64,000 bases of DNA from a virus. Under the pieces are notes generated by a model that was not told the origin of the DNA, did no database searches, and saw only the letters and a program-made list of their open reading frames with translations. Position numbers and translations under genes: made by a program. Shown piece by piece: positions 1,707 to 62,208 of this stretch. The stretch lies in the IMG/VR virus record IMGVR_UViG_3300035698_026991, positions 1,202 through 65,201 of that record, one strand, 5' to 3'. Within the stretch, counting starts at the first letter, position 1, and each line of letters opens with the position of its first letter.

Positions 1707-1735
1707 ATATATTCATAATTAATATTTAATAATTT

Positions 1736-1903
1736 TTATTTTTTTTGACCTGGGCCTAGGTCTTTATTAATAACAGAGTCGATTACATTAATTTCTAATG
1801 TTGGTAACTCTTCTATAGTATTTAGACCTAAACAATGTGGACAATTTTGCCATGAGGATCTTCCGTGCGGACACGGTAAATCCTTTTCTTTTTCTTCTTT
1901 CAT
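1736..1903 (-). CDS. small zinc-ribbon protein
   Basis: 55-aa ORF below the ORF-track cutoff, CPHG..CPHC motif. Fills the gap between two GT genes on the same strand. Confidence 0.35.
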   Translation of the reverse strand: MKEEKEKDLPCPHGRSSWQNCPHCLGLNTIEELPTLEINVIDSVINKDLGPGQKK

Positions 1904-6493: not shown

Positions 6494-6588
6494 AATATTT
6501 TTTATTCATAATTATTAATTTTTTCGGCCTTAACCCGAAAGAGAATTTCTTCTCTCCCAGATAAAGCCAAAAAAGGCTATTAAACAAT

Positions 6589-8080: not shown

Positions 8081-8099
8081 AATATTTTTTTAATTAGCC

Positions 8100-8200
8100 G
8101 TCAATGACCCGTGACTTAATCGGGACGGATCACATACGGGAGGACTCGACACCCTCCCGGATCCGCATGCTTATGATTTTAAATCCCATAAACATGTAGG
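8100..8200 (-). terminator. GC-rich hairpin element downstream of major capsid gene (attenuator/terminator candidate)
   Basis: GGGAGG-ACTCGACA-CCTCCC and CCCG-TGACTTAAT-CGGG hairpins in an otherwise AT-rich intergenic. No clear U-run on the minus strand. Confidence 0.3.
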
Positions 8201-9477: not shown

Positions 9478-9547
9478 AATAATGTTTTGATAATTCTAAT
9501 AATAACTATTAATGTTTTGTTAAGAACAATTTTTTAGATAATACTCA

Positions 9548-10363
9548 TTAGAAGACATTTGGATTCGATTTTGCAGCAATTAGGCTGTCGACAGCTTCTG
9601 AGTCACCCTTTATATGGGTAGCTCTACTAGAGCCTCCTCCAGTATTTAATGCCATCTTTTTATTAGCTTCCGCTAATTCAACTTCTGCTTGCTTTTTAGC
9701 TGCTTTCTCAGATAACTCTCCTTTGACAGCATGATATGCAACAGATACTTCTGTTATATCGTCATGTTTGTCTAGCCATTTATCTATGTCAGTAGCATAT
9801 TTTTCAAAATCAGGTGTTCTTGATATAAAATCTTTAGTAGTAGCTTCGAAAGCACTTAGATCATCACGTCTCTTTAACTCCTTGTCAAAGTCCGCTTTTA
9901 ATCCTTCGGCTTTTTCTTCCACTAACTTTGTTACTTCTTCAGAGGAAGTACCTTTATACCCTTCTTTCCCTAAATCTTTCTTGACTTCTTCGTGAGCTTT
10001 ACTAACTATTTGGGCATCCCCAATGGAAACTTTCCCTTCAAGAGCGGCTTTCGCTAAATCAGTATCTACTTTTCCACTTAAGATGGCTTTAACGATATCA
10101 GGATTTTTATCTAGATTATCTAGCAATGGTTCGATATCAGAAAAGAACTTTCTAAACTGACCCAACTCATCTCCTTGTTTACCGATAAGACTTTCTAACT
10201 CCTTGACTTGGTCCTTACCTTCTTCTATTTTTACTTCTCCTTCTTTTTTTGATGCTTCCCCCTCTTTAACTAAACCACCAATGGCGTTTAAATCAGGAAC
10301 ATTCTCTTCTATAGGAGGACTCCCCGGTTGTCCGGATCCTTCAAATTTATCTTCTTTACTCAT
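9548..10363 (-). CDS. scaffolding protein (putative)
   Basis: 271 aa, very acidic/Lys-rich and predicted coiled-coil. Immediately upstream of the MCP. Confidence 0.5.
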   Translation of the reverse strand: MSKEDKFEGSGQPGSPPIEENVPDLNAIGGLVKEGEASKKEGEVKIEEGKDQVKELESLIGKQGDELGQFRKFFSDIEPLLDNLDKNPDIVKAILSGKVDTDLAKAALEGKVSIGDAQIVSKAHEEVKKDLGKEGYKGTSSEEVTKLVEEKAEGLKADFDKELKRRDDLSAFEATTKDFISRTPDFEKYATDIDKWLDKHDDITEVSVAYHAVKGELSEKAAKKQAEVELAEANKKMALNTGGGSSRATHIKGDSEAVDSLIAAKSNPNVF

Positions 10364-10407
10364 ATATTTTTTTCATAATTAATTTCTAATCGACTAAGCT
10401 TAAACGA

Positions 10408-10584
10408 CTACTTTTTTTTCTTTCCAAATTTTTTATCAGAAAGTTTTTTGGTGATGTCTTCTAGACTGACACCCTCCTTTTTGTCATCTTTTTTTAAATC
10501 GTCTGTGATTTTCGATAAGACTTTTGAAATAGTATTACTTTCAACACCGATTTCTCTGTCTAAATTATCGTAATTTTTATTCAT
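10408..10584 (-). CDS. small Lys-rich protein
   Basis: 58-aa ORF below the cutoff, found by manual translation. Same strand, fills a gap. Confidence 0.3.
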   Translation of the reverse strand: MNKNYDNLDREIGVESNTISKVLSKITDDLKKDDKKEGVSLEDITKKLSDKKFGKKKK

Positions 10585-11433: not shown

Positions 11434-13542
11434 TTAACTTTGTAAACTACTTGCTCTATTCATCAAAGCACTTTCTGGATTACTATTATTTCCTGAAGAA
11501 ACATTAGTATTCACTTTTCCACCTCTACTAAAACCTCTTGGGTTTGTTGTAGGTAATGGAATCCTTGATGCTGTTGGTGGTGCTCCAGCGTCCAATAAAT
11601 TAATTGGTGATCCGGCTTGAGCAAATTGTGAGGCCCCATCTTTTCCTCCTCTCAACATTGCTAAAGCTTGATTTGCTATCTCTGGAGATATATTTGTTGT
11701 AGCAGTAGAAGGGGCAACGTTCGCTGGTGAAGGAGGAAGTTCTTCTCCCATCCCTTGTTGCATTGCTGCTTCCTCTGGGCTTAATGGCATTCCATCAGGA
11801 CCCATTGGGACTTCTTCTTCTTGCTCATCTTTTGTTATTGTGTCTAATGACCAGTTCCAATCAGTTAATATCTTCTGTGTTAGTTTTTGAGGATCAACGA
11901 ATGGTAAGTTGATTAATAATTGGAATAGATCCATATCTTGCTTCTTCTTAATATCTTGTTGTCCAGCGATAGAAGGAAGAACAAGTGCTCTATAATCAAA
12001 GTTACCCATAAGGTCATCTTTTTCAATTAATGGGAAAGCTTCCTTACCGTCATCTCCAACAATTCTTATTATCATATCTTCAGTAAAGAACTGTCGTGAC
12101 ATATCCATCCAGTATCTCATCAATAGTGCGTAACCTTCACCTAAGTGGTTAACATAAAGTCTAACTCTTTCTAGTGTTGATTCTCTTAAGTGTCTTACTT
12201 CTGTTGCTGAACCAGCTCCACCTCCTACACCCATAGAGAAATCATCTATACCTGAGGCATATCTCATATCTGCTTTTAGAAGATCTTCTTCTTTGTAAGC
12301 ACTAGCTTTAATATCACTAAATTGTACTTCTCTTACTCCATTTGGATCAACTGAATAAATGATACCGAATGGTCTTGTTACTAATTCGTCTTTATTTATA
12401 TTTGCTAAAGGATTAACAATCCACATCTTGTGAATGGATAAAGTTGTTGCATCAAGTCTTTGGTTCTTGATCATGTTCATCATTATCTGAGGATTTTCAA
12501 GAATCATTGGTAAACTGTACCCTTCAAATTCACCCGGTACCTTTAAGTAAGGGAAATCAATGAAAGCTGCTTCTTTAAAGTCATAAGGGATTGGCATAGA
12601 GCCACCATCAAATATTGGTGTATAAGCAGAACCTACATGCACTGAATATTTATCAGCAAAAGGTTGTGTCCACTCGAATACTTCGTACATCTGTAAATTA
12701 GGATTTGCAGAGTTATTATACTTATCGTCACCTGCTCCAAAAGAAGAAATATCATACGTTTTAGAACCTTTAACTGTCAATCTACTATTTTGTTTTACCT
12801 GAGTCCTGATAGAAGCATAATCTTGCAAATCTCCACCAGAATGATTTAATGCCAAAGCTAATCTCTCTGGATCTGCCCCTGGATATTTTCTTCTAATCTC
12901 TGGTTCTGTCAAAACAAGTCTTTTAAACCAGTATTGTTTATTTTCTCTTTTTGTATTATGCCAATCGTACCAAAGCGTATAGTTATCTACCCATTCTGCA
13001 CAAGGAGCATCATAAAATGTTCTTTCTTCTTCTTTCCATGTTGGTTTTGCTGTAATATCTTTTGTTTGTAAGAATTTTTGTTTCCTAACATCCTTTTTCC
13101 AAAATGCTTGCAAATATCCTGTCCCATAAATAAGGGAAGCCCTAACAACATCTTCAGTTGTAGTATCCATATGAGAAATTTCCCATAGGTAATCACCTAG
13201 TTGTTGTTGTTTACCTGTTTTTGCTTGATCTTCTGCTGTTCTACCTTGAACACTGAATTCAGGTCTAGCATCTAAAACTCTGGGCATAAGTGTTTCTACA
13301 ACTGCTTGTGTATAAGGAACAAATATATTCGACTGCCACTTCTTAATTTCTAATTGTCTGTCTCCTGTATAGGCAATATAAAGTTTATAAGACCTATCTA
13401 ACCTTGGTTTAATAACATTCAAAAAATAATTTCTCGCATCATCCATTTGTAAATTGAAATCAGATAGAAGTTGAACTTCCTCTTTTCCATAGTCTGATGG
13501 ATTATATATTTGATGTTTTCCTACTTTTGATTTTTTTGACAT
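11434..13542 (-). CDS. portal protein (putative)
   Basis: 702 aa directly downstream of TerL in the head module. Size and position fit a portal. No motif verified. Confidence 0.6.
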   Translation of the reverse strand: MSKKSKVGKHQIYNPSDYGKEEVQLLSDFNLQMDDARNYFLNVIKPRLDRSYKLYIAYTGDRQLEIKKWQSNIFVPYTQAVVETLMPRVLDARPEFSVQGRTAEDQAKTGKQQQLGDYLWEISHMDTTTEDVVRASLIYGTGYLQAFWKKDVRKQKFLQTKDITAKPTWKEEERTFYDAPCAEWVDNYTLWYDWHNTKRENKQYWFKRLVLTEPEIRRKYPGADPERLALALNHSGGDLQDYASIRTQVKQNSRLTVKGSKTYDISSFGAGDDKYNNSANPNLQMYEVFEWTQPFADKYSVHVGSAYTPIFDGGSMPIPYDFKEAAFIDFPYLKVPGEFEGYSLPMILENPQIMMNMIKNQRLDATTLSIHKMWIVNPLANINKDELVTRPFGIIYSVDPNGVREVQFSDIKASAYKEEDLLKADMRYASGIDDFSMGVGGGAGSATEVRHLRESTLERVRLYVNHLGEGYALLMRYWMDMSRQFFTEDMIIRIVGDDGKEAFPLIEKDDLMGNFDYRALVLPSIAGQQDIKKKQDMDLFQLLINLPFVDPQKLTQKILTDWNWSLDTITKDEQEEEVPMGPDGMPLSPEEAAMQQGMGEELPPSPANVAPSTATTNISPEIANQALAMLRGGKDGASQFAQAGSPINLLDAGAPPTASRIPLPTTNPRGFSRGGKVNTNVSSGNNSNPESALMNRASSLQS

Positions 13543-25140: not shown

Positions 25141-25461
25141 ATGTCAAAAAGAGTACAAGAGAAGTTTATAGATCCAACAGCGCCTGTGGTAAAGAAGGGA
25201 GTGGAACATCATGCTGGATGGGTTTATACACAAAGAACATTAGATATTATCAACGGGAATCAGATGGCCATTATAGAAGCCCTTGGATTACCAGATAAAC
25301 AGGAGAATGCGCTTAAGTCTCAAGTCAGACAAGCGCTATACAGACCACAGAGGTTAGCACACTTCCTAACTGCTCAAGAAATGGCAGATAGGAGCGATGA
25401 GGAAGCAGAAACATTAAAGGATTTGCCTTTAGATATTAATACCCTAAGAAACGTAAGGTAG
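25141..25461 (+). CDS. hypothetical protein (gene bracketed by 20-bp inverted repeats)
   Basis: 106-aa ORF. No recognisable domain. Confidence 0.4.
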   Translation: MSKRVQEKFIDPTAPVVKKGVEHHAGWVYTQRTLDIINGNQMAIIEALGLPDKQENALKSQVRQALYRPQRLAHFLTAQEMADRSDEEAETLKDLPLDINTLRNVR

Positions 25462-25474
25462 ATTATTAAAATTA

Positions 25475-25494
25475 TTGACTCGTGATTTTAGTGA
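25475..25494. repeat. right arm of perfect 20-bp inverted repeat TTGACTCGTGATTTTAGTGA
   Basis: Reverse complement of 25102..25121. Confidence 0.9.
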
Positions 25495-26694
25495 ATTACA
25501 TCCAGAACAGGTGGGGCGTCAGCCCCCTCACCGCCAGCCTAGGCAGAAGCGAGAGCGAGGTAAAGCCATACTGAATTTTGATGGTTTTAATATGCATTCT
25601 CGTGATAACTTCATAAAAGCGGTATACCTGTTCCGGATATAGTTCATTAAGTTTTATATTATTGGAGGGTGATAGCAAGTTCGTTCACAGTATTGCTTGA
25701 GCCTAAGGTGTGAATGGAGGGGTAAAACTCTCCAATAGTATAAAATAAATAATATGAAAAAAATTGATTTCAACAAAACGTGTTGTTTCCAATGCGAAAA
25801 AATTTGTGATTCGAAGTTAGATCTTTTAAGCATCAAATTATATGGTATATGCAAAGGATGCATAAAAAAAGGTGGCAAACAAGAAAAACACCTAATGCAA
25901 ACTTACATAAACAGTTAATACCACAAAACGAATAACAACAGGCATATAACAAAGGGTACCTAACTAAAGGTACCCTTTTCATTATTTATTTTTTAGAATT
26001 TTTCACCTTCCCCATTACGCATAACGAGAAACGTACCCTACACCCCCCACCCTATCCCTCTAACCTTCTCTTACGAGTTTTAAGCTATTAACAACACATT
26101 ATACCTATATACGCTTTAAACCTCTTAGGGGTTGAGGAATTAACTGTAAACAGCATTGGGGAGTCTGGTAGTTAGTAGTGAACTGCGCGTAGTTCGTAAT
26201 GTATGGAATTGGAAAAGTGAGTCAGAAATGCAGATGGGTACGTTACCCTTATAGTTACTTGTAATATTGGGACCCCTAACAGACAACCCCCCAACCCCCA
26301 ATTACGAACTCCACACTGCACACAGCACAAAGCGCACATCGTCTATTATGCACACTCTTCGCTCTTCGCTGTGCATAGCTTTTCTCTCATAGTTAAAACG
26401 GTATTCCCTACACACAGACACTTCGTGTCTGTTACAGTGGTTTCTTACAGTTCTTCTCTGCGTTGTTCGTTGTTGGTTGTGTACATCGTATGGTGTAAAA
26501 CTACTTCTTTGAGTATCTAAGGTCGTAACACTAATAGATAGTGTGGATACTCTTATTAGATATTAGTAAGTAGGTTTAGCACCGAACTCCGAGTTTTCCG
26601 TATAAACACTCGTCACGCACATCGCACCACGCACACCTCACAGGTATGCAGCATACATCTATGCAAGCGATAGCATTACGAGATTAAACCTAAC

Positions 26695-27000
26695 TACTAA
26701 GCACCACCGTAGCGAGTTAGTCACAGGAAGTTTATATATATCTAACTAAGACATCTAGATCTACATCTAGACCAGTTAGAGTATGTAAGGCGACTGGAAA
26801 CAAACCCAGTTAGTAAGGACCGTAGATCCTTATATCCTGTTACTAACTCGTTACACACCACCGTAGCGAATTAGCTACAGAAGAATATTTGATATTGCTA
26901 GAATGTCATTATTAGTGAAGAGGACTCTTCACAGCAAGCCAGCTAGAGTCTTGCCTTCTGTTGCTAATTCGTTACACACCACAATAACGAGCTACACGCA
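26695..27000. repeat. degenerate direct repeats (~40 bp, three copies) inside ORF-free CA-rich region
   Basis: CTACTAAGCACCACCGTAGCGAGTTAGTCACAG (26695), TAACTCGTTACACACCACCGTAGCGAATTAGCTACAG (26843) and TAATTCGTTACACACCACAATAACGAGCTACACGCAG (26964). Also the perfect 8-bp IR GTGAAGAG/CTCTTCAC at 26917. Confidence 0.7.
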
Positions 27001-27192
27001 GCGGATAAACATATCCGTCGTGCATCCTGTTCTTTGACATCTTATATTGATAATATCATATTATTTTTACATAGATTACGCATTAGACCTCTAGTCTTCT
27101 GCGTCTAGCTCGTTATAACCTCTATAGCATAACCACTTAGAGTTATGTTATATCACTATTGCTATAACTATAGCATTAACTATATAATCATT

Positions 27193-27627
27193 ATGGAATT
27201 AAAAAACCTTTTAGACTTCTCTATTACTAGAATCATCGCTTTCAATTCAGATAAGACTAGCGCTGAAGTTAAGCTTGGAGAATGTTTCAAATCTTTATCA
27301 GGATCTAACCCTACTATTAAACCAGATTGCAATGTCAAAGATGCGACATTCAGTAATCCTTCTGAATGGGGAGTTAGGGAGTTCACAGTTACTGATAAAG
27401 CAACTGAAGAAGTAATACAAATTACTTCCTATTACCAAAACATCAATGGTCCTGCATCTCGTTTCTTCGTGACCACTGAAGTTGCTAATAAGTTCTTAGC
27501 TAAGGCTAGCAACCTAAAGGAAAGTAGAATCTCAATAGGAGACTTTCAACCTACTGATGAGCAAAGAGCTTACCTAGAGAAGAAACACGATGGTAAGACA
27601 CCAGGTTACGCACCATTGGTAGCATAA
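27193..27627 (+). CDS. hypothetical protein
   Basis: Listed ORF 27145..27627. Probable start at MELKNLLDF (27193) after an AT-rich leader. Confidence 0.4.
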   Translation: MELKNLLDFSITRIIAFNSDKTSAEVKLGECFKSLSGSNPTIKPDCNVKDATFSNPSEWGVREFTVTDKATEEVIQITSYYQNINGPASRFFVTTEVANKFLAKASNLKESRISIGDFQPTDEQRAYLEKKHDGKTPGYAPLVA

Positions 27628-27645
27628 CTAAATAACTATAACTTA

Positions 27646-27701
27646 AGCACTATAACTATTACTATTGCATTTGCAATCTTAGTAGCTATAGTGCTTTTTT
27701 T
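27646..27701 (+). terminator. rho-independent terminator (long imperfect hairpin + T7)
   Basis: AGCACTATA...ATTGCATTTGCAAT...TATAGTGCT followed by TTTTTTT. Confidence 0.55.
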
Positions 27702-27913
27702 ATACACTACGCACGGTTCACTTAAGCGATAGCTACAACTCATAGCTCTCTCTCTACCATGAGCCGAACATATAGCTAATTCTATCAGGGATAATATATA
27801 AAGATAACTTAAGGATATCTAACTAATAAATTTAAGAATACAAACATCAGTACACAATTTAGGCTTTTCAATTTATTTAACTATCTATATTATCCCTACA
27901 GAGTTAGTTATAC

Positions 27914-27932
27914 ATTATTAATTACCTTAACC
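27914..27932 (+). promoter_or_regulatory. conserved 19-nt upstream motif ATTATTAATTACCTTAACC (copy 1)
   Basis: Motif 13 nt upstream of the ATG of the small membrane-protein gene 27945. Confidence 0.6.
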
Positions 27933-27944
27933 ATCAACACAACT

Positions 27945-28088
27945 ATGTTCTTAACTATAATAGCCACACTTCTCGCTGTAGCACTAATGATAGCAGTAGT
28001 AGTGACAACAGACTTCAAGTCTTTCTTCTCAGTTTGTATAACACTACTAGTAGTCGCTTTACTAAGTGTTCTAATAGCAACAATCTAA
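27945..28088 (+). CDS. small hydrophobic membrane peptide (47 aa)
   Basis: MFLTIIATLLAVALMIAVVVTT.. found by manual translation. Preceded by the conserved motif. Confidence 0.4.
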   Translation: MFLTIIATLLAVALMIAVVVTTDFKSFFSVCITLLVVALLSVLIATI

Positions 28089-28093
28089 GAGAC

Positions 28094-28112
28094 ATTATTA
28101 ATTTCCTTAATC
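28094..28112 (+). promoter_or_regulatory. conserved upstream motif ATTATTAATTTCCTTAATC (copy 2)
   Basis: 13 nt upstream of ATG 28125. Confidence 0.55.
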
Positions 28113-28124
28113 ACCTTAAACAAT

Positions 28125-28358
28125 ATGTTTAATATAAAAGATAGAAAAACTCTAAACACTATATCTAAAGTAGTTGGAAAAACATTTAAAGAAATAAGAG
28201 AAATACTCAAACTAGTAAAAAAAGCACTCAAACTAGTGAAAGGAGTAGATACATCACAGGAAAAAACGACAAAAAGACTAAACAACATTGAAAAGAAATA
28301 TTACACAAAGAAAGAAGTTGATACAATAATAAAAAAACTTAAAACCCAAAAGAAATAA
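28125..28358 (+). CDS. small Lys-rich coiled-coil protein
   Basis: 77-aa ORF following motif copy 2. Confidence 0.45.
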   Translation: MFNIKDRKTLNTISKVVGKTFKEIREILKLVKKALKLVKGVDTSQEKTTKRLNNIEKKYYTKKEVDTIIKKLKTQKK

Positions 28359-28369
28359 AGCAAAACCAC

Positions 28370-28388
28370 ATTATTAATTACCTTAACC
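28370..28388 (+). promoter_or_regulatory. conserved upstream motif ATTATTAATTACCTTAACC (copy 3)
   Basis: 14 nt upstream of ATG 28402. Confidence 0.6.
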
Positions 28389-28401
28389 CACCGCAAACAA
28401 T

Positions 28402-28584
28402 ATGAATCACTACCCACCAATTTCATTACTAGTAGCAATCATCCCATCAGCACCTATATTCAGCTTTGGATACCAAGCAATGGGCATAGAACCCACAGGG
28501 TTACTAGTTTCAATATCATTCATCTTATTACTAATTCAAGTCGCAGGACTAGTTACATACATACTAACTGAAGTATGTAAGTAA
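28402..28584 (+). CDS. small membrane protein (60 aa)
   Basis: Two hydrophobic segments. Confidence 0.45.
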   Translation: MNHYPPISLLVAIIPSAPIFSFGYQAMGIEPTGLLVSISFILLLIQVAGLVTYILTEVCK

Positions 28585-28586
28585 GT

Positions 28587-28605
28587 ATTACTAATTCCCT
28601 TAACC
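28587..28605 (+). promoter_or_regulatory. conserved upstream motif ATTACTAATTCCCTTAACC (copy 4)
   Basis: 10 nt upstream of ATG 28615. Confidence 0.55.
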
Positions 28606-28614
28606 AATCCTATT

Positions 28615-28764
28615 ATGCACTATCTTATTCACTTAACTTTATTCTTCGTAGGACTTACTTTAGTCCTACAAGATATACCTACACACCCATTCTTATTCCT
28701 TACAGGTTTCATAGTCTTAGGGATATGGTATGGGAATGTATTCCTATCACCTAATGATTATTAA
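28615..28764 (+). CDS. small membrane peptide (49 aa)
   Basis: MHYLIHLTLFFVGLTLVLQD.. by manual translation. Confidence 0.35.
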   Translation: MHYLIHLTLFFVGLTLVLQDIPTHPFLFLTGFIVLGIWYGNVFLSPNDY

Positions 28765-28775
28765 TCACCTTAATT
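28757..28775 (+). promoter_or_regulatory. conserved upstream motif ATTATTAATCACCTTAATT (copy 5)
   Basis: 12 nt upstream of ATG 28787. Confidence 0.5.
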
Positions 28776-28786
28776 AACTAAAACAA

Positions 28787-28957
28787 ATGAGATGCTTAAA
28801 ATGGTTACAACCACACATATGGGGTAAATGGAAAATGAAAGAAACAGGAAAGATAATAGTAAATGAAAAGAATAAAGGAAGCTATTGGATACAAGAAAGA
28901 GAATGCACATTATGTGGATACAAAGAATTCAAAGAGTCAAAAACAGAACAAATCTAA
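28787..28957 (+). CDS. small KW-rich peptide with C-terminal ECxLCG motif (56 aa)
   Basis: LQPHIWGKWKMKETG...ERECTLCGY. Paralogous to 34355..34522. Confidence 0.4.
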   Translation: MRCLKWLQPHIWGKWKMKETGKIIVNEKNKGSYWIQERECTLCGYKEFKESKTEQI

Positions 28958-28958
28958 T

Positions 28959-28976
28959 ATTATTAATTAACTTAAC
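28959..28976 (+). promoter_or_regulatory. conserved upstream motif ATTATTAATTAACTTAAC (copy 6)
   Basis: 5 nt upstream of ATG 28981. This supports 28981 as the true start of listed ORF 28885..29454. Confidence 0.5.
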
Positions 28977-28980
28977 TGCA

Positions 28981-29454
28981 ATGCACTCAAACATATTAAA
29001 TGCGTTTAATAAGCTAAATCAATCAGCTAGTTCAGTCAACACATCAACCATTACTGCACAAGAACAATATACTCAGTTATTTTGCAATAATGAAATCAAA
29101 AGTAAAGATGGGATGTTAACACAGGTACTTATACAAAAAGGCCTCAATATCAATGAAACAATGAAAGCATCTTCGTTAATAAAACTATTTATCTTTGATA
29201 AAAACATATCTTGGTTCAGAGGGAACAAGACACCAGCTCTTATGTGCAAAGATAATATAATTAAAGTAATACTCAAAAAAGAAAAGTTCACTGATGAAGA
29301 AATGACAAGAACATTAGAGCTTATTCAACTCACAGACCAAGACCCGAACCTTAGTTGGACAACAGATTCAAAACATCAAGTATATGAAGATGAAGACGAA
29401 GACGATGATGATGATGATGATGATGATGATACTTGGGACTATGATGAAGACTAA
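28981..29454 (+). CDS. triplicated-family protein, copy 1 (acidic poly-Asp C-terminus)
   Basis: Shares the FNK.N start, L.DKNISW and LIELTDKD..L.WE.D blocks with 29485..29961 and 29966..30409. Ends with a 13-residue poly-Asp run. Confidence 0.5.
   Translation: MHSNILNAFNKLNQSASSVNTSTITAQEQYTQLFCNNEIKSKDGMLTQVLIQKGLNINETMKASSLIKLFIFDKNISWFRGNKTPALMCKDNIIKVILKKEKFTDEEMTRTLELIQLTDQDPNLSWTTDSKHQVYEDEDEDDDDDDDDDDTWDYDED
29404..29439. repeat. (GAT)12 trinucleotide repeat encoding poly-Asp
   Basis: gatgatgatgat... read directly. Confidence 0.9.
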
Positions 29455-29455
29455 A

Positions 29456-29473
29456 ATTATTAATAACCTTAAC
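29456..29473 (+). promoter_or_regulatory. conserved upstream motif ATTATTAATAACCTTAAC (copy 7)
   Basis: 12 nt upstream of ATG 29485. Confidence 0.55.
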
Positions 29474-29484
29474 AATTAATCACT

Positions 29485-29961
29485 ATGTATAATAAACTAA
29501 TTAGCCAATTCAACAAAGTAAACAACACAACCAAAGCTCCTATAGTAGAACAACCAGCAGTATCAGCTTTCCCAGGATTAAAAACAATGTCAGATATATT
29601 CAATAAAGATAATATGATTAAGCAAATCCTTAGATACAAAAACCTACAAGAGAGAAGAGTAACGAAAGCACTCATGATCATAAAAGTTATCCTACTTGAT
29701 AAAGATATACCTTGGGAAAGAGATTCAGTAGGATTTGCTCTAACTAAAGATAAGATGCTACAGATGATACTAGTAGTAGCTGAGATGCCTACACAAAACA
29801 TCAAAAGAACTATTGGACTTATACAAGAAGCAAACGGAGACACTGAACTTGAATGGTTAGAAGATCGTACATCTAAAATATCAAAAAAACTAGAAGGATT
29901 AGACACAGCAAAGAAAATCGATATGCTTAAAGAGCTAAACGAGAATAATAAACTAGTATAG
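29485..29961 (+). CDS. triplicated-family protein, copy 2
   Basis: Paralog of the flanking genes (LLDKDIPWE, LIQEANGDTELEWLED). Confidence 0.5.
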   Translation: MYNKLISQFNKVNNTTKAPIVEQPAVSAFPGLKTMSDIFNKDNMIKQILRYKNLQERRVTKALMIIKVILLDKDIPWERDSVGFALTKDKMLQMILVVAEMPTQNIKRTIGLIQEANGDTELEWLEDRTSKISKKLEGLDTAKKIDMLKELNENNKLV

Positions 29962-29965
29962 TATT

Positions 29966-30409
29966 ATGAAAGCAAACTTAATAGCCCAGTTCAAAAAGCT
30001 AAAAGACAACGAACCTATAGAGCCCAAACAATTGTCAGATAGCCAAAGAACATACAACGAAATGAGACCTAAAGTGAATAGATACAAGGACATGATGATT
30101 CAAGAAATATTATTATCAAAAGGAATCACACACGAGAAATTAATGGTAGTAAAATCATTAGTTAAATTTGCCCTACTTGATAAAAATATAAGCTGGGAAA
30201 AAGAAACTGAAAACTCATTATTAACTAAAGAAAAAATGATCTCATTAATATTAATAAGAGAAAAAATAGACAACAATACAACAAAAGAAATTCTAAATCT
30301 TATAGAACTAACAGACAAAGACAACACACTTAAATGGGAACAAGACTTCGTATCTGGAATCTATGAAGATAAAGATAGCACTCAACTATGTGCAACCACT
30401 AGTACCTAA
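29966..30409 (+). CDS. triplicated-family protein, copy 3
   Basis: Paralog (LLDKNISWEKE, LIELTDKDNTLKWEQD). No separate motif copy, 5 nt after the previous stop. Confidence 0.5.
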   Translation: MKANLIAQFKKLKDNEPIEPKQLSDSQRTYNEMRPKVNRYKDMMIQEILLSKGITHEKLMVVKSLVKFALLDKNISWEKETENSLLTKEKMISLILIREKIDNNTTKEILNLIELTDKDNTLKWEQDFVSGIYEDKDSTQLCATTST

Positions 30410-30424
30410 TTATTAAAAGTTAAC
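30409..30424 (+). promoter_or_regulatory. conserved upstream motif variant ATTATTAAAAGTTAAC (copy 8)
   Basis: 10 nt upstream of ATG 30434. Confidence 0.45.
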
Positions 30425-30433
30425 AACATCTTT

Positions 30434-30709
30434 ATGGAATTAAAATACGTAATAACCGAACACAATGCATTTGCAATGTTCTCCAAAACAACCAACCACT
30501 CAGATATAGGTCGAGTCCTAGACGGGCAACCGGTAGGAGCTGGGTTCTGCACATTAACACAAGGACATAAACAAGGGTGCAGAGATAATGATTTTGAAGA
30601 TCAAGAAGTTGTAGATGTTCATTGCTATGGAGAAAGTGATTCTCTTGGTATAGCATCAAGAGATAAAGACGAAGAGATTATTAATAACAAGATTAACCCA
30701 GAAATATAA
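30434..30709 (+). CDS. hypothetical protein
   Basis: 91 aa. Confidence 0.4.
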   Translation: MELKYVITEHNAFAMFSKTTNHSDIGRVLDGQPVGAGFCTLTQGHKQGCRDNDFEDQEVVDVHCYGESDSLGIASRDKDEEIINNKINPEI

Positions 30710-30710
30710 T

Positions 30711-31001
30711 ATGTTTACAATAACACTATTACTTATCATAGGTACAATATTAGTTATCGGAGGAATATTCAGAAACGAAGCAGTATTTCAATATAGAAAA
30801 GAACTAATAAATAGGATAGCAGATAGATCAAAGAAAGAAGCCGATGAAGCATACGCAAAAGGAAGTATTGATTCAGAAGAATTAATGAAATTAAACAAAA
30901 GAAGATTTGCTCAATTTGATGCAGTATCATACAACGAAATGCTATTCCAATTTTGGAAACCAATAGATACATTCTATGATATAGAAGACATCCTTTCATA
31001 G
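30711..31001 (+). CDS. membrane-anchored hypothetical protein
   Basis: N-terminal TM helix (ITLLLIIGTILVIGGIF). Confidence 0.4.
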   Translation: MFTITLLLIIGTILVIGGIFRNEAVFQYRKELINRIADRSKKEADEAYAKGSIDSEELMKLNKRRFAQFDAVSYNEMLFQFWKPIDTFYDIEDILS

Positions 31002-31041
31002 AAGAAAAACAAGTCAATAAACAAAGGGAAACAAAAATAAG

Positions 31042-31062
31042 TTAATAATTAAGTCCACTTAA
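31042..31062 (+). promoter_or_regulatory. conserved upstream motif variant TTAATAATTAAGTCCACTTAA (copy 9)
   Basis: Upstream of ATG 31068. Confidence 0.35.
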
Positions 31063-31067
31063 ATAAT

Positions 31068-31493
31068 ATGTTAGTAACAAGAAAATTAATCGTAAACGAA
31101 GGAGGAATCCAAGAAGTAACTGAAGAAAAAGTAAACCAACCAACATCTGTACAAGCTAGAGGAGAAATAGAAATAAAAGTAGAAATGGGAGAAGACAACG
31201 ACGAATTGAATTTCTCAAAAGATGAAATGGTTCTACTTATTTTATCTTTACAAACCAAAGGAATTTTAGATCCAGAAACTACAAAAGAAATGATTAAAAA
31301 AGCAACCACAGATAATAGATTAGAATGGGAAGAAGAAGGAGGAAGAGAAGAAGAAGAAGAAAAAGAAGAAGAAGAAGAATGTAATTGTCCAGTATGTACA
31401 CTAAAAAAAGCATTAGAACAACAAGGACAAAACAAAAATGAACAAATAAATCCTATGAATAGATTTATGGAAAACTTTATTCAAAAACTTTAA
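31068..31493 (+). CDS. acidic protein with Glu-rich tract and CxxC motif
   Basis: 141 aa. EEEGGREEEEEKEEEEECNCPVC. Confidence 0.4.
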   Translation: MLVTRKLIVNEGGIQEVTEEKVNQPTSVQARGEIEIKVEMGEDNDELNFSKDEMVLLILSLQTKGILDPETTKEMIKKATTDNRLEWEEEGGREEEEEKEEEEECNCPVCTLKKALEQQGQNKNEQINPMNRFMENFIQKL

Positions 31494-34316: not shown

Positions 34317-34354
34317 GCACCTTACTGTGCTTATTATTATTAACTAATTTAATT

Positions 34355-34539: not shown

Positions 34540-35460
34540 ATGGAAAAAAACACAACAGATGTCTTAGAATATTTTAAGAAGAAAATAGATAGTGATCCAG
34601 AACTAAAAAAACTCTATGATAATGAAAAAGATATTATGCCTAAATACCAAAAAACAACACTAAAGACAATAGACTATCCAGATGCTCCATCAGGCAAGAT
34701 CAATATAAACAAATGGGTACCACCTTTCAAAAAAGTGAAGGGTGGTTACGGATTTGTAGGAGTAGTAGCTGAAGATTCAAAAACAGGACAACTACAATGT
34801 CATCATTGTGGTAAATGGTTTCAACAGTTACAAACTCATATGATTAAGCACGGTCTAAATGGAAAATCATACAGAAAGAAATATGGTCTACTCTCATCAA
34901 CTGCATTGAAATCAAAAAAATTAAGATTAATGCATTCAAAAGTTTGTAGAGCATCACAAGCAGCAGGGAAAATGAACTTAGGCCACAAAGGAGGATATGG
35001 ATTTAAGAAAGGAAATAAAGAAGCAGCGAATAGAAAAGGAACACTCACTAAAGAGGAAGCTAAAAATAGACATGGAGTATGTGATTTACAAATAATGTCA
35101 AAGATAATGGCATTGAGTAGAAAATTAGGTAAAACACCTTCACTCATTGATATAAAAAAAGAATATGGAGGAAGCATTATATCAATAATGCATTCAAGAT
35201 ACGGAAGTTACATCAAATATTGTAAAGATACACTCAAGCTAACACCTTGTATATCAGCACATAACCCAAAACTTAAGAACAAAAAAGAATGGAGAGAACA
35301 CTTAATAAAACTTGGTATAAAAATATCAAAAAAACAAAAAGGAAAGATATTAAGAATCTCTCACCTTCCAATGAAAGAATCCAGATACATATACAAATAT
35401 TTCAATGGAATTAAAAGTTATAGAAAAGCAGTCGAAAAACAATTAAAAATTAATAGCTAA
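34540..35460 (+). CDS. Lys-rich protein with Ros/MucR-type zinc-finger-like segment
   Basis: CHHCGKWFQQLQTHMIKHGLNGKSYRKKYGL resembles the MucR/Ros C-terminal motif (C.ECGK.FK.L..H...HG.T...YR..WGL). Start set at MEKNTTD. Confidence 0.4.
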   Translation: MEKNTTDVLEYFKKKIDSDPELKKLYDNEKDIMPKYQKTTLKTIDYPDAPSGKININKWVPPFKKVKGGYGFVGVVAEDSKTGQLQCHHCGKWFQQLQTHMIKHGLNGKSYRKKYGLLSSTALKSKKLRLMHSKVCRASQAAGKMNLGHKGGYGFKKGNKEAANRKGTLTKEEAKNRHGVCDLQIMSKIMALSRKLGKTPSLIDIKKEYGGSIISIMHSRYGSYIKYCKDTLKLTPCISAHNPKLKNKKEWREHLIKLGIKISKKQKGKILRISHLPMKESRYIYKYFNGIKSYRKAVEKQLKINS

Positions 35461-35466
35461 CACAAT

Positions 35467-35838
35467 ATGAAAAAAAACATAAAAGCTTTAGCAAAAGCTC
35501 TTAAAAGTATACCGACAGAAGAGGAAGAAGAAAAGAAAGCAAAACTAGTAACACTAAAAAAGTTAGCACAAGTAGGTAATATAGGAATTACTATAGGAGG
35601 CTTTAAAAAAGGAGTAGCGAAATGTGTTGATTACTCTGAAGTACAAAGTAACAAAAATTACATAAGCGACTATATTAAACAAGAAAGAGCTAACCAACAA
35701 TTAACTCAAGAAGAGTTGGGATATAAAGCTGACCTATCAAGAAGTACAATAAGTGCAGCTGAAAGAGGCTATGGAATCTCAAAACATACTATGTTTTGTA
35801 TTATTAACTCCTTAGGGAAACAACTAGTAATCCAATAA
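35467..35838 (+). CDS. XRE-family helix-turn-helix transcriptional regulator
   Basis: LTQEELGYKADLSRSTISAAERGYGISKHTMFCIINSLG fits the HTH_3 pattern. Confidence 0.55.
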   Translation: MKKNIKALAKALKSIPTEEEEEKKAKLVTLKKLAQVGNIGITIGGFKKGVAKCVDYSEVQSNKNYISDYIKQERANQQLTQEELGYKADLSRSTISAAERGYGISKHTMFCIINSLGKQLVIQ

Positions 35839-41920: not shown

Positions 41921-42190
41921 CTATTGTTGATTTCTTCTGATGTCATCAATAGCACGAGTAAGTGAATCTTGTAGCTTCTCCAGTTTCCGTTTGATAATAT
42001 AACTGTGATTCTGCACAAGGTGTCTTTTGAGTCCCTTTTTAATCTTTTGAATCTCACTAATGATGCCCCCTGCAAGACAGTTAACTCCAGAGCATTCATC
42101 AAAAGAGCTACTTTGTTTATTCCTAAGTTCAATTTTGAATTGTTTGACATGCCTATCAACCTCCTTTTCCCAATCCGTTCTCTTTTTCAT
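41921..42190 (-). CDS. hypothetical basic protein
   Basis: 89 aa. Preferred over the overlapping 41902..42159. Confidence 0.35.
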   Translation of the reverse strand: MKKRTDWEKEVDRHVKQFKIELRNKQSSSFDECSGVNCLAGGIISEIQKIKKGLKRHLVQNHSYIIKRKLEKLQDSLTRAIDDIRRNQQ

Positions 42191-42350
42191 TTTCTTCTCC
42201 CTCCTTATAAATGTGAGTTGCTTTACAATTCATACAGGTATACATTTTCTTATTAAGAAAATCTTCTGCCCATTCTTCTTTTCTATCAGGACCAATAACT
42301 GCATAACCTTGCAAATTAAGATCCTTACTACCACAAGTTTTACATTTCAT
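42156..42350 (-). CDS. zinc-ribbon protein
   Basis: CKTC...CMNC four-Cys arrangement, 64 aa. Confidence 0.4.
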   Translation of the reverse strand: MKCKTCGSKDLNLQGYAVIGPDRKEEWAEDFLNKKMYTCMNCKATHIYKEGEENEKENGLGKGG

Positions 42351-42616
42351 TAGTCAAACTCCTTTTCATTTAAATAAATTTTAACAAACTTAATTTCACC
42401 TTTCCAGAAGTAGTCAACCAAGTATTCTATAATTTCATCAGGAGTCATATTACCAAATATCCTATGATAATTATTGTGAGCACCAACATTTATGATTGCA
42501 ATATTTTCATTGCAACCATTACCTCCACGACTGGTAGGTATAACGTGATGTCTACTTGGAGAATTTGGGTTTTCATTCTTTCGTCTTGTTTTCCGGCATT
42601 TCTTTTTCCTTCCCAT
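42350..42616 (-). CDS. HNH endonuclease
   Basis: SRHHVIPTSRGGNGCNENIAIINVGAHNNYHRIFG matches the HNH core (H-H ... N ... H..YH). Confidence 0.7.
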   Translation of the reverse strand: MGRKKKCRKTRRKNENPNSPSRHHVIPTSRGGNGCNENIAIINVGAHNNYHRIFGNMTPDEIIEYLVDYFWKGEIKFVKIYLNEKEFD

Positions 42617-42845
42617 TTTGTCCTCCTTTTAATAATATCCCATTTTAACTAAAATGTTATAAATGTAATGGTATTTTTCAAAAGTTAAAGGAATTAAAGT
42701 AACAGCAATTTCAACTATTTTTAATATCATACATACATAGATAATTATTACTATTATTTTTAATGTTTCCATAATTCACCTCCTCTATTTAACTTTAAAA
42801 GAGCTATACCAATTACTTTTATTGTCATCTCAGACACTTATTTTT

Positions 42846-42873
42846 AAAAAAGGGGAAGTTATACTCATTCCCC
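42846..42873 (-). terminator. rho-independent terminator for gene 42887..43177
   Basis: GGGGAA-loop-TTCCCC with A-run on plus. Shares the loop core TTATACTCA with the terminator at 41866. Confidence 0.45.
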
Positions 42874-42886
42874 AAGAGTGTTAAGA

Positions 42887-43177
42887 TTAAATATCAAATT
42901 CGCAATTCTTCACGCCAGTAACAAAGGCGTCCCATTCAGTCAGGGTAAAATCAAGAGTTGTGTCTTCTGGGTCCTTAGTATCTCTGACCTGGACACTCTT
43001 CTTCCCGATTTTGACGGCAACACAGTCGAACCATTTCCAGGTTGCGCTGCTACAGATAAAACCGTCTTTTTCTTTTCGGCCGTCAGCATTCTTAACATAC
43101 CTTGATTTAACAGATTTAATCAGCTTCATTTGAGCCTCCTTATTGATATTTACTTCAAAGAACAGTCCAATTCTCAC
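42887..43177 (-). CDS. hypothetical protein (locally GC-enriched gene)
   Basis: 96 aa. Coding sequence visibly GC-richer than surroundings. Confidence 0.4.
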   Translation of the reverse strand: MRIGLFFEVNINKEAQMKLIKSVKSRYVKNADGRKEKDGFICSSATWKWFDCVAVKIGKKSVQVRDTKDPEDTTLDFTLTEWDAFVTGVKNCEFDI

Positions 43178-62079: not shown

Positions 62080-62208
62080 GGGGTCGAAATCGAATTATTA
62101 GAATAACCTTAATTAAATAAAATTATGGAAGATACAACAATTCACATCATGTTAGCAGTTGCGACTTTTCTCTCAGTTGTTTACACATGGGTAAGAACTA
62201 AATAAAAT

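What the first reader, a model, noticed from the sequence alone, without database searches (positions are those of the whole stretch)
27914..31066. Array of nine copies of a 19-nt motif (ATTATTAATTNCCTTAAC) each placed 4-14 nt upstream of a short ORF
A second promoter or regulatory class distinct from the TTGACA promoters drives a 3-kb island of small genes. The motif lies at variable distance from the ATG, so it is not an RBS. It may be a phage-specific early or middle promoter (T7-like motif logic) or an operator of a phage transcription factor. A further variant precedes a micro-ORF at 62103 upstream of ruvC. The island is rich in tiny membrane peptides and unknowns, typical of host-takeover and anti-defence loci.
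Basis: seen in the sequence. Interest (0 to 1): 0.7.

Follow-up and report, generated by a model that had tools for sequence, protein, structure and literature searches.

The report
Repeated start-associated leader motif in phage ORFan operon
Seven consecutive small orphan genes of a new ~100-kb phage each start 4-14 bases after a near-identical 18-base sequence; this is a real shared control tag that probably marks each gene's translation start, and it resembles puzzles already known in other phages.

Summary
The repeat is real. There are seven copies of ATTATTAAT-NN-CCTTAAC with at most 2 mismatches, at 27914-29473, all on the + strand (8 hits at up to 3 mismatches against 1.03 expected). 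Conservation stops sharply at the edges of the 18 nt. Each copy begins between -8 and +11 nt from the upstream stop codon and ends 4-14 nt before the next ATG.

The window is a novel ~100-kb SU10-like podophage. Only 6 of 107 genes have a Shine-Dalgarno-like sequence. The family has its own sigma70-type promoter class (acTTGACAAGT-N13-15-TATAAT), often placed so that the mRNA is leaderless.

No array of the 18-mer was found in 839 kb of relatives, nor among the exact-consensus hits in IMG/VR and JGI metagenomes. Its 5' half (ATTATTAA) is a family-wide element upstream of start codons, and in relatives it lies inside predicted 5' UTRs. The leaders are almost free of G, unstructured, lack any conserved -35, and occur one per cistron.

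Best reading (about 0.4): an mRNA-level start-associated leader or operator cassette for Shine-Dalgarno-independent cistrons, which may also serve as the recombination joint for orphan-gene cassettes. A phage-specific promoter (about 0.27) is not excluded. Only transcription-start mapping can decide. Interest is moderate.

The parts
27914..27931 (+). Motif copy 1, ATTATTAATTACCTTAAC (consensus), 13 nt before the ATG at 27945 (47-aa hydrophobic ORF). It is the first element after the terminator and the non-coding gap.
28094..28111 (+). Motif copy 2, ATTATTAATTTCCTTAAT, 5 nt after the upstream stop and 13 nt before the ATG at 28125 (77-aa basic ORF).
28370..28387 (+). Motif copy 3 (consensus), 11 nt after the stop and 14 nt before the ATG at 28402 (60-aa hydrophobic ORF).
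28587..28604 (+). Motif copy 4, ATTACTAATTCCCTTAAC, 2 nt after the stop and 10 nt before the ATG at 28615 (49-aa hydrophobic ORF).
28757..28774 (+). Motif copy 5, ATTATTAATCACCTTAAT. It contains the upstream stop codon and ends 12 nt before the ATG at 28787 (56-aa ORF with a C-x2-C pair).
28959..28976 (+). Motif copy 6, ATTATTAATTAACTTAAC, 1 nt after the stop and 4 nt before the ATG at 28981 (157-aa ORF, first of three tandem paralogs).
29456..29473 (+). Motif copy 7, ATTATTAATAACCTTAAC, 1 nt after the stop and 11 nt before the ATG at 29485 (158-aa paralog).
30409..30424 (+). Degenerate copy, ATTATTAA-AAG-TTAAC (block spacing 3 instead of 5), 9 nt before the ATG at 30434.
30677..30697 (+). Degenerate copy, ATTATTAA-TAACAAGA-TTAAC (block spacing 8), embedded in the last codons of ORF 30434-30709, 13 nt before the ATG at 30711.
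31042..31064 (+). Doubtful remnant, TTAATAATTAAGTCCACTTAAAT, before the ATG at 31068.
34336..34353 (+). Weak copy with canonical block spacing, ATTATTAACTAATTTAAT (matrix score 11.9), 1 nt before the ATG at 34355. The downstream gene is a paralog of the gene behind copy 5.
62094..62113 (+). Outlying variant, ATTATTA-GAATAA-CCTTAAT, 11 nt before a 26-aa hydrophobic micro-ORF (62125-62205) between a gyrase-repeat gene and ruvC.
27637..27704 (+). Long hairpin (33-nt arms) ending in a T-run. It is a terminator-like end of the preceding unit (promoter at 27034, gene 27196-27627), so the island needs its own start of transcription or read-through.
   Evidence: I1
27865..27893 (+). The only sigma70-like match between the terminator and copy 1 (TTTTCA-17-TATTAT, 9 of 12). 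It lies inside the right arm of inverted repeat 27787-27812 / 27872-27897. It is a candidate operon promoter but is not statistically distinguishable from chance.
   Evidence: I2

Best explanation
The 18-mer is a start-associated leader element. Together with a short C/A-rich, G-free spacer it forms nearly the whole intercistronic region before each of seven consecutive orphan cistrons, which I take to be one operon.

I think it works mainly in the mRNA. The AUUAUUAAU half is the phage family's generic AU-rich, unstructured landing sequence for Shine-Dalgarno-independent initiation. The invariant CCUUAAC box, at a fixed 2-nt distance, is a tag specific to this island. It would let one trans-acting factor (a phage protein or RNA, not identified) switch translation or stability of all seven cistrons together, in the manner of a RegA- or SAS-type element. 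Because homology between the cassettes is limited to these 18 nt, the same element is also the likely joint at which small-gene cassettes (motif + spacer + ORF) were added or exchanged.

Shown: the motif's existence, sharp edges, orientation, position, one-per-cistron rule, G-depletion, lack of RNA structure, lack of a Shine-Dalgarno sequence, lack of sigma70 features, absence from the relatives examined, and the position of the 5' half relative to predicted sigma70-type promoters in relatives (their start sites are not mapped).

Inferred: that it acts at the RNA level, that a cognate factor exists, and that it has a role in recombination.
For: (1) All seven genes at 27945-29961 have one copy, 4-14 nt from the ATG. 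Gene 29966, whose ATG follows the upstream stop by 4 nt, has none. A translation signal is needed per cistron; a promoter is not.

(2) Only 6 of 107 genes in the window have a Shine-Dalgarno-like sequence, so another kind of initiation region must operate.

(3) ATTATTAA occurs 44 times in the window, 23 of them in the 13% that is intergenic, and mostly 11-28 nt before a gene ATG. It lies upstream of 11 of 96 non-island genes, against 1.8 expected under a first-order Markov model.

(4) In relatives, the same element begins 6-10 nt after the -10 box of consensus TTGACAAGT/TATAAT promoters, or further inside the predicted leader. Examples are L232 (GroEL and two other genes), L062 (ATTATTAATTAAC, 10 nt before the ATG) and L058 (several genes, 11-16 nt before the ATG). 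It is therefore predicted to be transcribed.

(5) The island leaders are 1.4% G and 21% C, against 10.5% G and 8% C for other genes. The motif is unpaired in the minimum-free-energy fold at 6 of 7 sites.

(6) No conserved -35 exists and no family-type -10 (AGTATAnT) is present.

(7) Strong copies are confined to 1.6 kb of the 64 kb. That is odd for the promoter class of a phage polymerase or sigma factor, but natural for a local cassette element.

(8) Conservation drops to zero at the motif edges and the flanking genes are mostly unrelated (only the two paralogs behind copies 6 and 7 are homologous), as expected if the motif is the only shared homology.

(9) The weak copy at 34336 precedes a paralog of the gene behind copy 5, and the outlier at 62094 again precedes a tiny hydrophobic ORF. 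The motif therefore travels with its gene.

(10) Precedent: the start-associated sequences (SAS) of cluster K mycobacteriophages show the same positional logic (PMC3203893).
Against: An 18-nt sequence kept at 89-100% identity is far more than an AU-rich enhancer needs, and no cognate factor was identified.

No complementary RNA exists in the window. The best match is 13 contiguous pairs including G-U at 26162, which is not an outlier among chance matches.

The spacing to the ATG ranges from 4 to 14 nt.

The first copy sits exactly where a transcription unit must begin, after a strong terminator and with no TTGACAAGT promoter. That is what a promoter would look like.

The generic ATTATTAA enrichment could be partly compositional. 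Other AT-only 8-mers are about as common upstream of genes.

There are no expression data of any kind.
Confidence: 0.4

Rival explanations
1. The motif is a phage-specific promoter, read by a phage-encoded RNA polymerase or sigma factor, or by host polymerase with an activator. Each copy would start a transcript with a 5-17 nt leader lacking a Shine-Dalgarno sequence, giving a tandem promoter array that drives a host-takeover island as a temporal class separate from the TTGACAAGT promoters.
For: Its size (18-21 nt), asymmetry, sharp edges and co-orientation with the genes resemble T7-type promoters. Copy 1 follows a strong terminator and a 210-nt gap that has no TTGACAAGT promoter, and no terminator is predicted until 34309, so some start signal is needed there. 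In this family promoters routinely sit right next to start codons: the ATG lies 5-8 nt after the -10 box, giving leaderless mRNAs. So closeness to the ATG does not argue against a promoter. Dense promoter arrays occur in the early regions of large lytic phages (own knowledge: T4, SPO1; PeSL papers PMC2839356 and PMC4122927). A near-identical single copy, ATTATTAATCACTTAAC, follows a hairpin ahead of a gene cluster in relative L059.
Against: No RNA polymerase or sigma factor was found among the window proteins scanned, and the 1101-aa orphan protein has no polymerase motifs. About 36 kb of the genome is unseen, however. Strong copies occur only in 1.6 kb and before no structural, replication or other gene class. 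There is no -35 and no family -10. The base after the motif is usually a pyrimidine. The one-copy-per-cistron pattern is not needed for transcription. The 5' half is predicted to be transcribed leader sequence elsewhere in the family.
Confidence: 0.27
2. The motif is a DNA operator, stoperator-like. A phage DNA-binding protein would bind the asymmetric 18-bp sites and block or modulate RNA polymerase passing through the island, silencing the orphan genes at a given stage. Candidates are the HTH_3 protein at 35467-35838 and the conserved Ros/MucR-domain protein at 34540-35460.
For: The sites are asymmetric, lie in short intergenic gaps and all face the direction of transcription, as stoperators do (PMC9283540; comparison drawn in PMC3203893). 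Two candidate DNA-binding regulators are encoded 4 kb downstream. The Ros/MucR-domain protein is conserved across the family, with 131 homologs. CTTAAC and its complement GTTAAG are enriched near other gene starts, in either orientation, which suits a DNA-level reader.
Against: The Ros/MucR-domain protein is family-wide, whereas no motif array was found in the relatives examined. Stoperators are scattered over the whole genome; these copies are not. No integrase or lysogeny module is seen in the window. There is no dyad symmetry of the kind XRE-type dimers usually need. This model does not explain the strict link to start codons.
Confidence: 0.13
3. The motif is only a recombination scar or junction. 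The 18-mer would be the homology used when small-gene cassettes are shuffled between co-infecting phages, or a remnant of local duplication, with no present role in expression beyond being AT-rich spacer.
For: The island is lineage-specific. The paralog family has no homolog among 5.8 billion proteins. Only the 91-aa gene at 30434, which is behind a degenerate copy rather than one of the seven canonical ones, has a few homologs, and these sit in other contexts. No comparable site was found in 839 kb of relatives. Homology is limited to the motif. Tandem paralogs show local duplication.
Against: Seven copies are kept at 0-2 mismatches while everything around them has diverged beyond recognition, which implies selection on the sequence. 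The two central positions are free while 16 others are fixed, which is the signature of a recognition site. Orientation and distance to the ATG are constrained.
Confidence: 0.08
4. The motif is an RNA processing site. A sequence-specific endoribonuclease would cut the polycistronic transcript at each motif, either producing short-leader monocistronic mRNAs or inactivating early mRNAs (RegB-like logic).
For: Its intercistronic position and single-stranded, G-free context fit. The family appears to favour leaderless or short-leader mRNAs. T7 RNase III sites and T4 RegB sites occupy comparable positions (own knowledge).
Against: No nuclease candidate was identified. Known single-strand endonucleases recognise 3-7 nt, not 18. 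There is no hairpin for RNase III.
Confidence: 0.05

Closest known systems
Start-associated sequences (SAS) of cluster K mycobacteriophages (Pope et al. 2011, PMC3203893; function still unresolved in 2025, PMC12699233)
   Same: Both are short asymmetric motifs present in many copies, in one orientation, a few nucleotides upstream of start codons. Both are restricted to non-structural genes, sit in front of unrelated gene families, and sometimes contain the upstream stop codon. In both cases the proposed role is in translation initiation or a factor-binding site, and the factor is unknown.
   Different: The sequences are unrelated (GGGATAGGAGCCC against ATTATTAATTACCTTAAC). SAS contains the Shine-Dalgarno core AGGAG; this motif has no G at all and sits in a genome almost without Shine-Dalgarno sequences. 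SAS is 13 bp and 3-7 bp from the start; this motif is 18 nt and 4-14 nt away. SAS copies are spread over half a genome and conserved across a whole phage cluster; here they are packed into 1.6 kb and no comparable array was found in the relatives examined. No ESAS-like inverted repeats are present.
PeSL cassettes (promoter-early + stem-loop) of T4-type phages (PMC2839356, PMC4122927)
   Same: Both are conserved regulatory repeats that flank small orphan genes in hyperplastic regions. In both, the repeat is the only homology between cassettes and is the proposed substrate for modular shuffling.
   Different: PeSLs are recognisable sigma70 early promoters combined with a terminator stem-loop. 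This motif has neither a -35/-10 pair nor a hairpin.
Phage-specific promoters of single-subunit RNA polymerases (T7, T3, SP6 type)
   Same: Both are about 18-23 nt, sharply bounded and asymmetric, with an AT-rich 5' part followed by a specificity block, and both are co-oriented with the genes.
   Different: T7-type promoters are distributed before the middle and late gene classes genome-wide and need an encoded polymerase. Here the copies are confined to one island and no polymerase was found in 64 kb. There is no conserved initiating purine.
Stoperators of cluster A mycobacteriophages (PMC9283540)
   Same: Both are asymmetric sites in short intergenic gaps, oriented with the direction of transcription.
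   Different: Stoperators are 13 bp, number 20-30 per genome, and belong to a temperate immunity system with a dedicated repressor. None of these features is seen here.
T4 RegA translational operators and RegB cleavage sites (own knowledge)
   Same: These are AU-rich, unstructured elements at the initiation regions of several early mRNAs, used for coordinated post-transcriptional shut-off.
   Different: RegA sites overlap the AUG and are poorly conserved. RegB cuts the Shine-Dalgarno tetranucleotide GGAG. No RegA or RegB homolog was detected among the island proteins scanned.

Membership tests
Sigma70-type bacterial promoter | A -35 hexamer (TTGACA-like) 16-18 bp upstream of a -10 hexamer | tested here: not met
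   The 45 nt upstream of all nine sites show no conserved hexamer. Information content outside the 18 nt is about 0.
Sigma70-type bacterial promoter | A -10 hexamer TAnnnT, which in this phage family is AGTATA(A/C)T | tested here: not met
   The only candidate is TATTAA (motif positions 3-8), which lacks the final T. The family -10 seen in 16 TTGACAAGT promoters is absent.
T7-type single-subunit RNA polymerase promoter | A conserved asymmetric motif of about 18-23 bp, co-oriented with the genes | tested here: met
T7-type single-subunit RNA polymerase promoter | Copies precede the middle and late gene classes across the genome | tested here: not met
   All sites scoring above 20 bits lie within 27914-29473, and none lies elsewhere in the 64 kb.
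T7-type single-subunit RNA polymerase promoter | The phage encodes the cognate RNA polymerase | tested here: inconclusive
   No polymerase or sigma family hit among about 50 window proteins scanned. The 1101-aa orphan protein has no polymerase motif and no PDB match. About 36 kb of the ~100-kb genome lies outside the window.
Shine-Dalgarno ribosome-binding site | Purine-rich complementarity to the CCUCC of the 16S rRNA 3' end, 5-10 nt before the start codon | tested here: not met
   The seven leaders contain 3 G in 210 nt and no GGAG, GAGG or AGGA.
Cluster K start-associated sequence (SAS) | An asymmetric repeat in one orientation, a few nucleotides upstream of start codons of non-structural genes | tested here: met
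   Definition from PMC3203893.
Cluster K start-associated sequence (SAS) | Consensus GGGATAGGAGCCC containing the Shine-Dalgarno core | tested here: not met
   The sequence is unrelated and free of G.
Cluster K start-associated sequence (SAS) | Conserved across the related phage cluster | tested here: not met
   No site above 16 bits in 839 kb from about 55 related loci. The exact consensus gave only single-copy hits in IMG/VR and JGI metagenomes.
PeSL cassette | A composite of an early sigma70 promoter and a stem-loop terminator | tested here: not met
   There is no hairpin at or next to the motif and no -35/-10 pair.
PeSL cassette | Flanks lineage-specific orphan genes in a variable region | tested here: met
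   The paralog family has no homologs. No Pfam family reaches its curated cut-off and PHROG matches are weak. The island is absent from relatives.
Stoperator | Many copies dispersed genome-wide plus a cognate immunity repressor | tested here: not met
   Copies are clustered in one island. No lysogeny module was seen. The HTH_3 protein at 35467-35838 is untested as a binder.
Known structured RNA family (Rfam) | A match to a curated covariance model | tested here: not met
   No hit at E <= 1 in 25400-31200. Only a tRNA was found in the whole window.

The most novel reading that the evidence does not exclude
The 18-mer is a sequence-specific translation tag that works without a Shine-Dalgarno sequence. 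A dedicated phage factor, or a segment of host rRNA, would recognise AUUAUUAAU-NN-CCUUAAC in the mRNA and so recruit or exclude ribosomes at each of seven orphan cistrons. This would be a cistron-addressing system for translation in a host and phage that largely do without Shine-Dalgarno pairing, and it would give a mechanism for the long-unexplained SAS-type elements.
Probability: 0.2. Interest if true: 0.65.

Novelty: new variant of a known kind. Interest (0 to 1): 0.42.

Why it matters
If the element acts in the mRNA, it offers a compact, testable case of how individual cistrons are addressed for translation when there is no Shine-Dalgarno pairing. It would also be a second, unrelated example of the start-associated sequences that have stayed unexplained in mycobacteriophages since 2011.

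If it is a promoter, it defines a private transcription class for an orphan-gene island.

In either case it marks seven genes, four of them 47-60 aa and three of those hydrophobic, as one co-regulated and probably recently assembled module in a phage family that has not been described. It also gives a handle (18 nt, two blocks) for reporter and pull-down experiments.

Tried and rejected
Searches for the motif elsewhere:
- The exact consensus gave 10 loci in IMG/VR and 89 in JGI metagenomes, each with one copy and no array on matrix rescanning. These are chance or unrelated hits.
- Matrix scanning of 839 kb of relatives gave nothing above 16 bits.

Homologs of the island and flanking proteins:
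- None were found in INPHARED, in IMG/VR by peptide patterns, or in the 5.8-billion-protein set for the paralog family.
- Exact-sequence look-ups of two window proteins (the 158-aa island protein and the capsid protein) found no contig on record.

RNA-level tests:
- No conserved fold.
- No Rfam hit.
- An antisense partner in the window was rejected: 13 pairs including G-U at 26162 is not an outlier.

Promoter tests:
- No sigma70 -35 was found.
- Bacteroidota-type promoters (TTTG / TAnnTTTG) are not enriched in intergenic DNA: 6 of 108 occurrences. The idea of a Bacteroidota host drawn from the lack of Shine-Dalgarno sequences was therefore dropped.
- The 1101-aa orphan protein as a virion RNA polymerase was rejected: no polymerase motif, no PDB, Pfam or PHROG hit.

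Host and synteny:
- Host inference from RecA failed. About 45% identity to many phyla, with Fusobacteriaceae and Clostridia on top.
- An archaeal TATA-box reading (motif centre about 25-28 nt before the ATG) was rejected because the genes are bacterial (RecA, RuvC, GroES, DnaB/DnaC types) and sigma70 promoters are present.
- Synteny of the upstream flank with relative L239 is not supported.
- The repeat ACCAGCTCAGTATTA in L059 was examined as a possible equivalent. It looks like the -10 region of ordinary family promoters with terminators in between, not the same element.

Weak coincidences noted but not relied on: complementarity of CUUAACC to the conserved 16S segment GGUUAAG, and resemblance to rrn boxA.

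Full report
**Observation.** The stretch 27.9-29.5 kb holds seven + strand copies of ATTATTAATTACCTTAAC with 0-2 mismatches, at 27914, 28094, 28370, 28587, 28757, 28959 and 29456. At up to 3 mismatches the window has 8 hits against 1.03 expected, and 0 of 100 shuffles reach 8. A matrix built from the seven scores them 23-27 bits, and the next sites in the window score 18 and 13. Conservation has sharp edges: about 27 bits over 18 columns and about 0 bits in the flanks. Positions 10-11 are free, so the element is bipartite, ATTATTAAT-NN-CCTTAAC. Each copy starts between -8 and +11 nt from the upstream stop codon and ends 13, 13, 14, 10, 12, 4 or 11 nt before the next ATG. The motif plus a short spacer therefore makes up the intercistronic region. 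The outlier near 62.1 kb is real and precedes a 26-aa hydrophobic micro-ORF.

**Genome context.** The window is phage DNA. It carries an SU10-type capsid and portal, a terminase, a primase-helicase, DnaC- and DnaD-like loaders, GroEL/GroES, RecA, an SNF2 helicase, an SbcD-like nuclease, RuvC, a MoxR-VWA pair and RmlA/B/D-like enzymes. Nothing in INPHARED is close; the best capsid match is 29% identical. IMG/VR holds relatives of 97-102 kb with capsid proteins up to 84% identical. Only 6 of 107 genes have a Shine-Dalgarno-like sequence, and four of those sit together at 41921-43129. The family has its own sigma70-type promoter class, acTTGACAAGT-N13-15-TATA(A/C)T. Five near-identical copies occur in the window and 16 distinct ones across the family. 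Several have the ATG only 5-8 nt after the -10 box, which predicts leaderless mRNAs. Bacteroidota-type -7 boxes are not enriched. The host stays unknown, because RecA is about 45% identical to many phyla.

**The island.** A TTGACA promoter at 27034 drives gene 27196-27627, which ends in a long hairpin with a T-run (27637-27704). The next 210 nt are non-coding and hold no TTGACAAGT promoter, only a weak chance-level sigma70 match at 27865-27893 inside an inverted repeat. Copy 1 follows. No terminator is predicted until 34309. The genes behind the seven copies encode 47-, 60- and 49-aa hydrophobic peptides, a 77-aa basic protein, a 56-aa protein with a C-x2-C pair, and the first two of three tandem paralogs. 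None has a Pfam family above its curated cut-off. The paralog family has no homolog among 5.8 billion proteins.

**Comparative evidence.** No array of the 18-mer was found elsewhere. Exact-consensus hits in IMG/VR and JGI metagenomes are single copies in unrelated contexts. No site above 16 bits exists in 839 kb from about 55 related loci. Relatives reached through the 1101-aa protein, MoxR, the conserved Ros/MucR-domain protein (131 homologs) and the 91-aa island protein do not share the island.

The 5' half of the motif, however, is family-wide. ATTATTAA occurs 44 times in the window, 23 of them in the 13% that is intergenic, usually 11-28 nt before an ATG. It lies upstream of 11 of 96 non-island genes, against 1.8 expected. 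In relatives it is part of a conserved block, ATTATTAATTAATTATGAATAAAAAAT, before late genes. It also begins 6-10 nt after the -10 box of consensus TTGACAAGT promoters (L232 three times; L062 as ATTATTAATTAAC) or lies 11-16 nt before the ATG in L058. In those cases it falls inside predicted 5' UTRs. Two isolated bipartite look-alikes occur in relatives: L059 ATTATTAATCACTTAAC and L058 ATTATTAAAAGCACTTAAC, the latter 3 nt before an ATG. About 0.5 such matches are expected by chance by my own rough estimate.

**Properties of the element.** There is no conserved -35, and the family -10 box is absent. The leaders are 1.4% G and 21% C, against 10.5% G and 8% C for other genes. They are unpaired in the minimum-free-energy fold at 6 of 7 sites. 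There is no Rfam match and no significant antisense partner in the window. No RNA polymerase or sigma factor was found among the window proteins scanned, and the 1101-aa orphan protein is not a polymerase. About 36 kb of the genome is unseen.

**Interpretation.** Five facts point away from a promoter class and towards an element that belongs to each cistron's initiation region:
- There is one copy per cistron.
- Each copy sits hard against the start codon.
- Strong copies are confined to 1.6 kb.
- There are no promoter hexamers.
- The 5' half is predicted to be transcribed leader sequence elsewhere in the family.

The fixed CCUUAAC box, 2 nt after the generic AU-rich block and in a leader that otherwise avoids G, looks like a recognition tag for a common trans-acting factor. 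The sharp edges, with mostly unrelated genes on either side, fit a cassette joint. I therefore rank the readings as follows:
- mRNA-level start-associated leader or operator, also serving as a cassette joint: 0.40
- Phage-specific promoter: 0.27
- DNA operator, stoperator-like: 0.13
- Recombination scar only: 0.08
- RNA processing site: 0.05

The promoter reading keeps real weight. Copy 1 sits where a transcription unit must start, and this family places promoters immediately next to start codons.

**Comparison with known systems.** The closest analogue in behaviour is the SAS of cluster K mycobacteriophages. It has the same positional logic and its function was still unknown in 2025 (PMC3203893, PMC12699233). 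The present motif fails SAS membership on sequence, on Shine-Dalgarno content and on conservation across relatives. PeSL cassettes share the link to orphan genes but not the promoter-plus-hairpin anatomy (PMC2839356, PMC4122927). T7-type promoters share the size and asymmetry but not the genome-wide distribution. Stoperators share the orientation rule only (PMC9283540).

**Verdict.** This is a real, statistically solid, lineage-specific regulatory repeat. It is a new variant of a known kind of phenomenon. Its mechanism cannot be resolved without mapping 5' ends. Interest is moderate.

Noticed in passing
window 8095-8128 (- strand), between the capsid gene (8218-9477) and the next gene (7367-8080): A conserved H-type pseudoknot, CCCG-ATTA-AGTCA-CGGG-TCAT-TGACG, about 15 nt upstream of the downstream ATG. 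In 22 distinct relatives 93.9% of cells pair, against 77% in shuffles (0 of 500 shuffles reach this). All 5 pairs of helix 2 show compensatory changes (for example GATCA/TGATC, AGCCA/TGGCT, GGTTA/TAACC). In many relatives it is preceded by a hairpin with a T-loop-like GGTTCGAACC. There is no Rfam match. It may be a translational or RNA-stability element for the gene after the capsid gene.
   Followed up: yes
window 21775(+), 54217(+), 59651(+), 47016(-), 48563(-); variants at 27034(+) and 50445(-); relatives L050, L053, L062, L232, L233: A family-wide sigma70-type promoter class, acTTGACAAGT-N13-15-TATA(A/C)T, conserved well beyond the two hexamers. In several cases the ATG lies only 5-8 nt after the -10 box, which predicts leaderless mRNAs.
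   Followed up: partly
window 41921-43129 (- strand): Four adjacent small genes carry strong AGGAGG Shine-Dalgarno sequences, while only 6 of 107 genes in the window have any such sequence. A similar Shine-Dalgarno-bearing cluster occurs in relative L062. This could be an acquired module or a separately translated class.
   Followed up: no
window 25940-27190: A stretch of about 1.2 kb without plausible genes. It is richer in G+C (0.38) and holds direct repeats (CACCACCGTAGCGA.TTAG, three copies) and several 18-21 nt inverted repeats. There is no Rfam hit at E <= 1. It may be an origin, a packaging region or an uncharacterised RNA. Relative L239 carries a tmRNA gene (9458-9834) just upstream of its homolog of island gene 30434.
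   Followed up: partly
window about 10364-10420, 6494-6540 and 1707-1740 (- strand upstream regions) and their orthologous positions in relatives: A conserved late-gene upstream block. A short palindrome (TGAGCTCA in relatives, TAAGCTTA in the window) is followed by (ATTATTA)ATTAATTATGAATAAAAAAT and then the ATG. The block contains an out-of-frame ATG. It is conserved across relatives whose proteins are only 40-60% identical.
   Followed up: partly
window upstream of 3495-4016 (-), 8218-9477 (-) and 11434-13542 (-): Three other phylogenetically conserved upstream boxes: the palindrome TTAATCTAGATTA about 25 nt before the ATG of gene 3495-4016; TTGTTTTTAACAC (GTTCTTAACAAAAC in the window) about 35-55 nt before the capsid gene ATG; and an extended -10-like ACTATGGTAAAATA before the portal gene.
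   Followed up: no
window 25141, 55368 and 59751 upstream regions; L059 8620-8640: Repeats of AAGTTAAGT(T/C) in the leaders of several genes downstream of TTGACAAGT promoters. GTTAAG is the reverse complement of the island motif's CTTAAC box, and both 6-mers are enriched upstream of genes.
   Followed up: no
window 34540-35460 (+): A 306-aa protein with a Ros/MucR zinc-finger domain, conserved across the phage family (131 homologs at 41-71% identity, including on contigs of 97-101 kb). It is a candidate AT-rich-DNA-binding regulator and sits next to an HTH_3 protein (35467-35838).
   Followed up: partly
window 28981-30409 and 31068-31493: Three tandem paralogs of 147-158 aa (28-30% identical, with a shared LxDKxIxW motif), plus a fourth protein that shares only the C-terminal half. 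One paralog ends in a poly-Asp tail. No homologs were found anywhere.
   Followed up: partly
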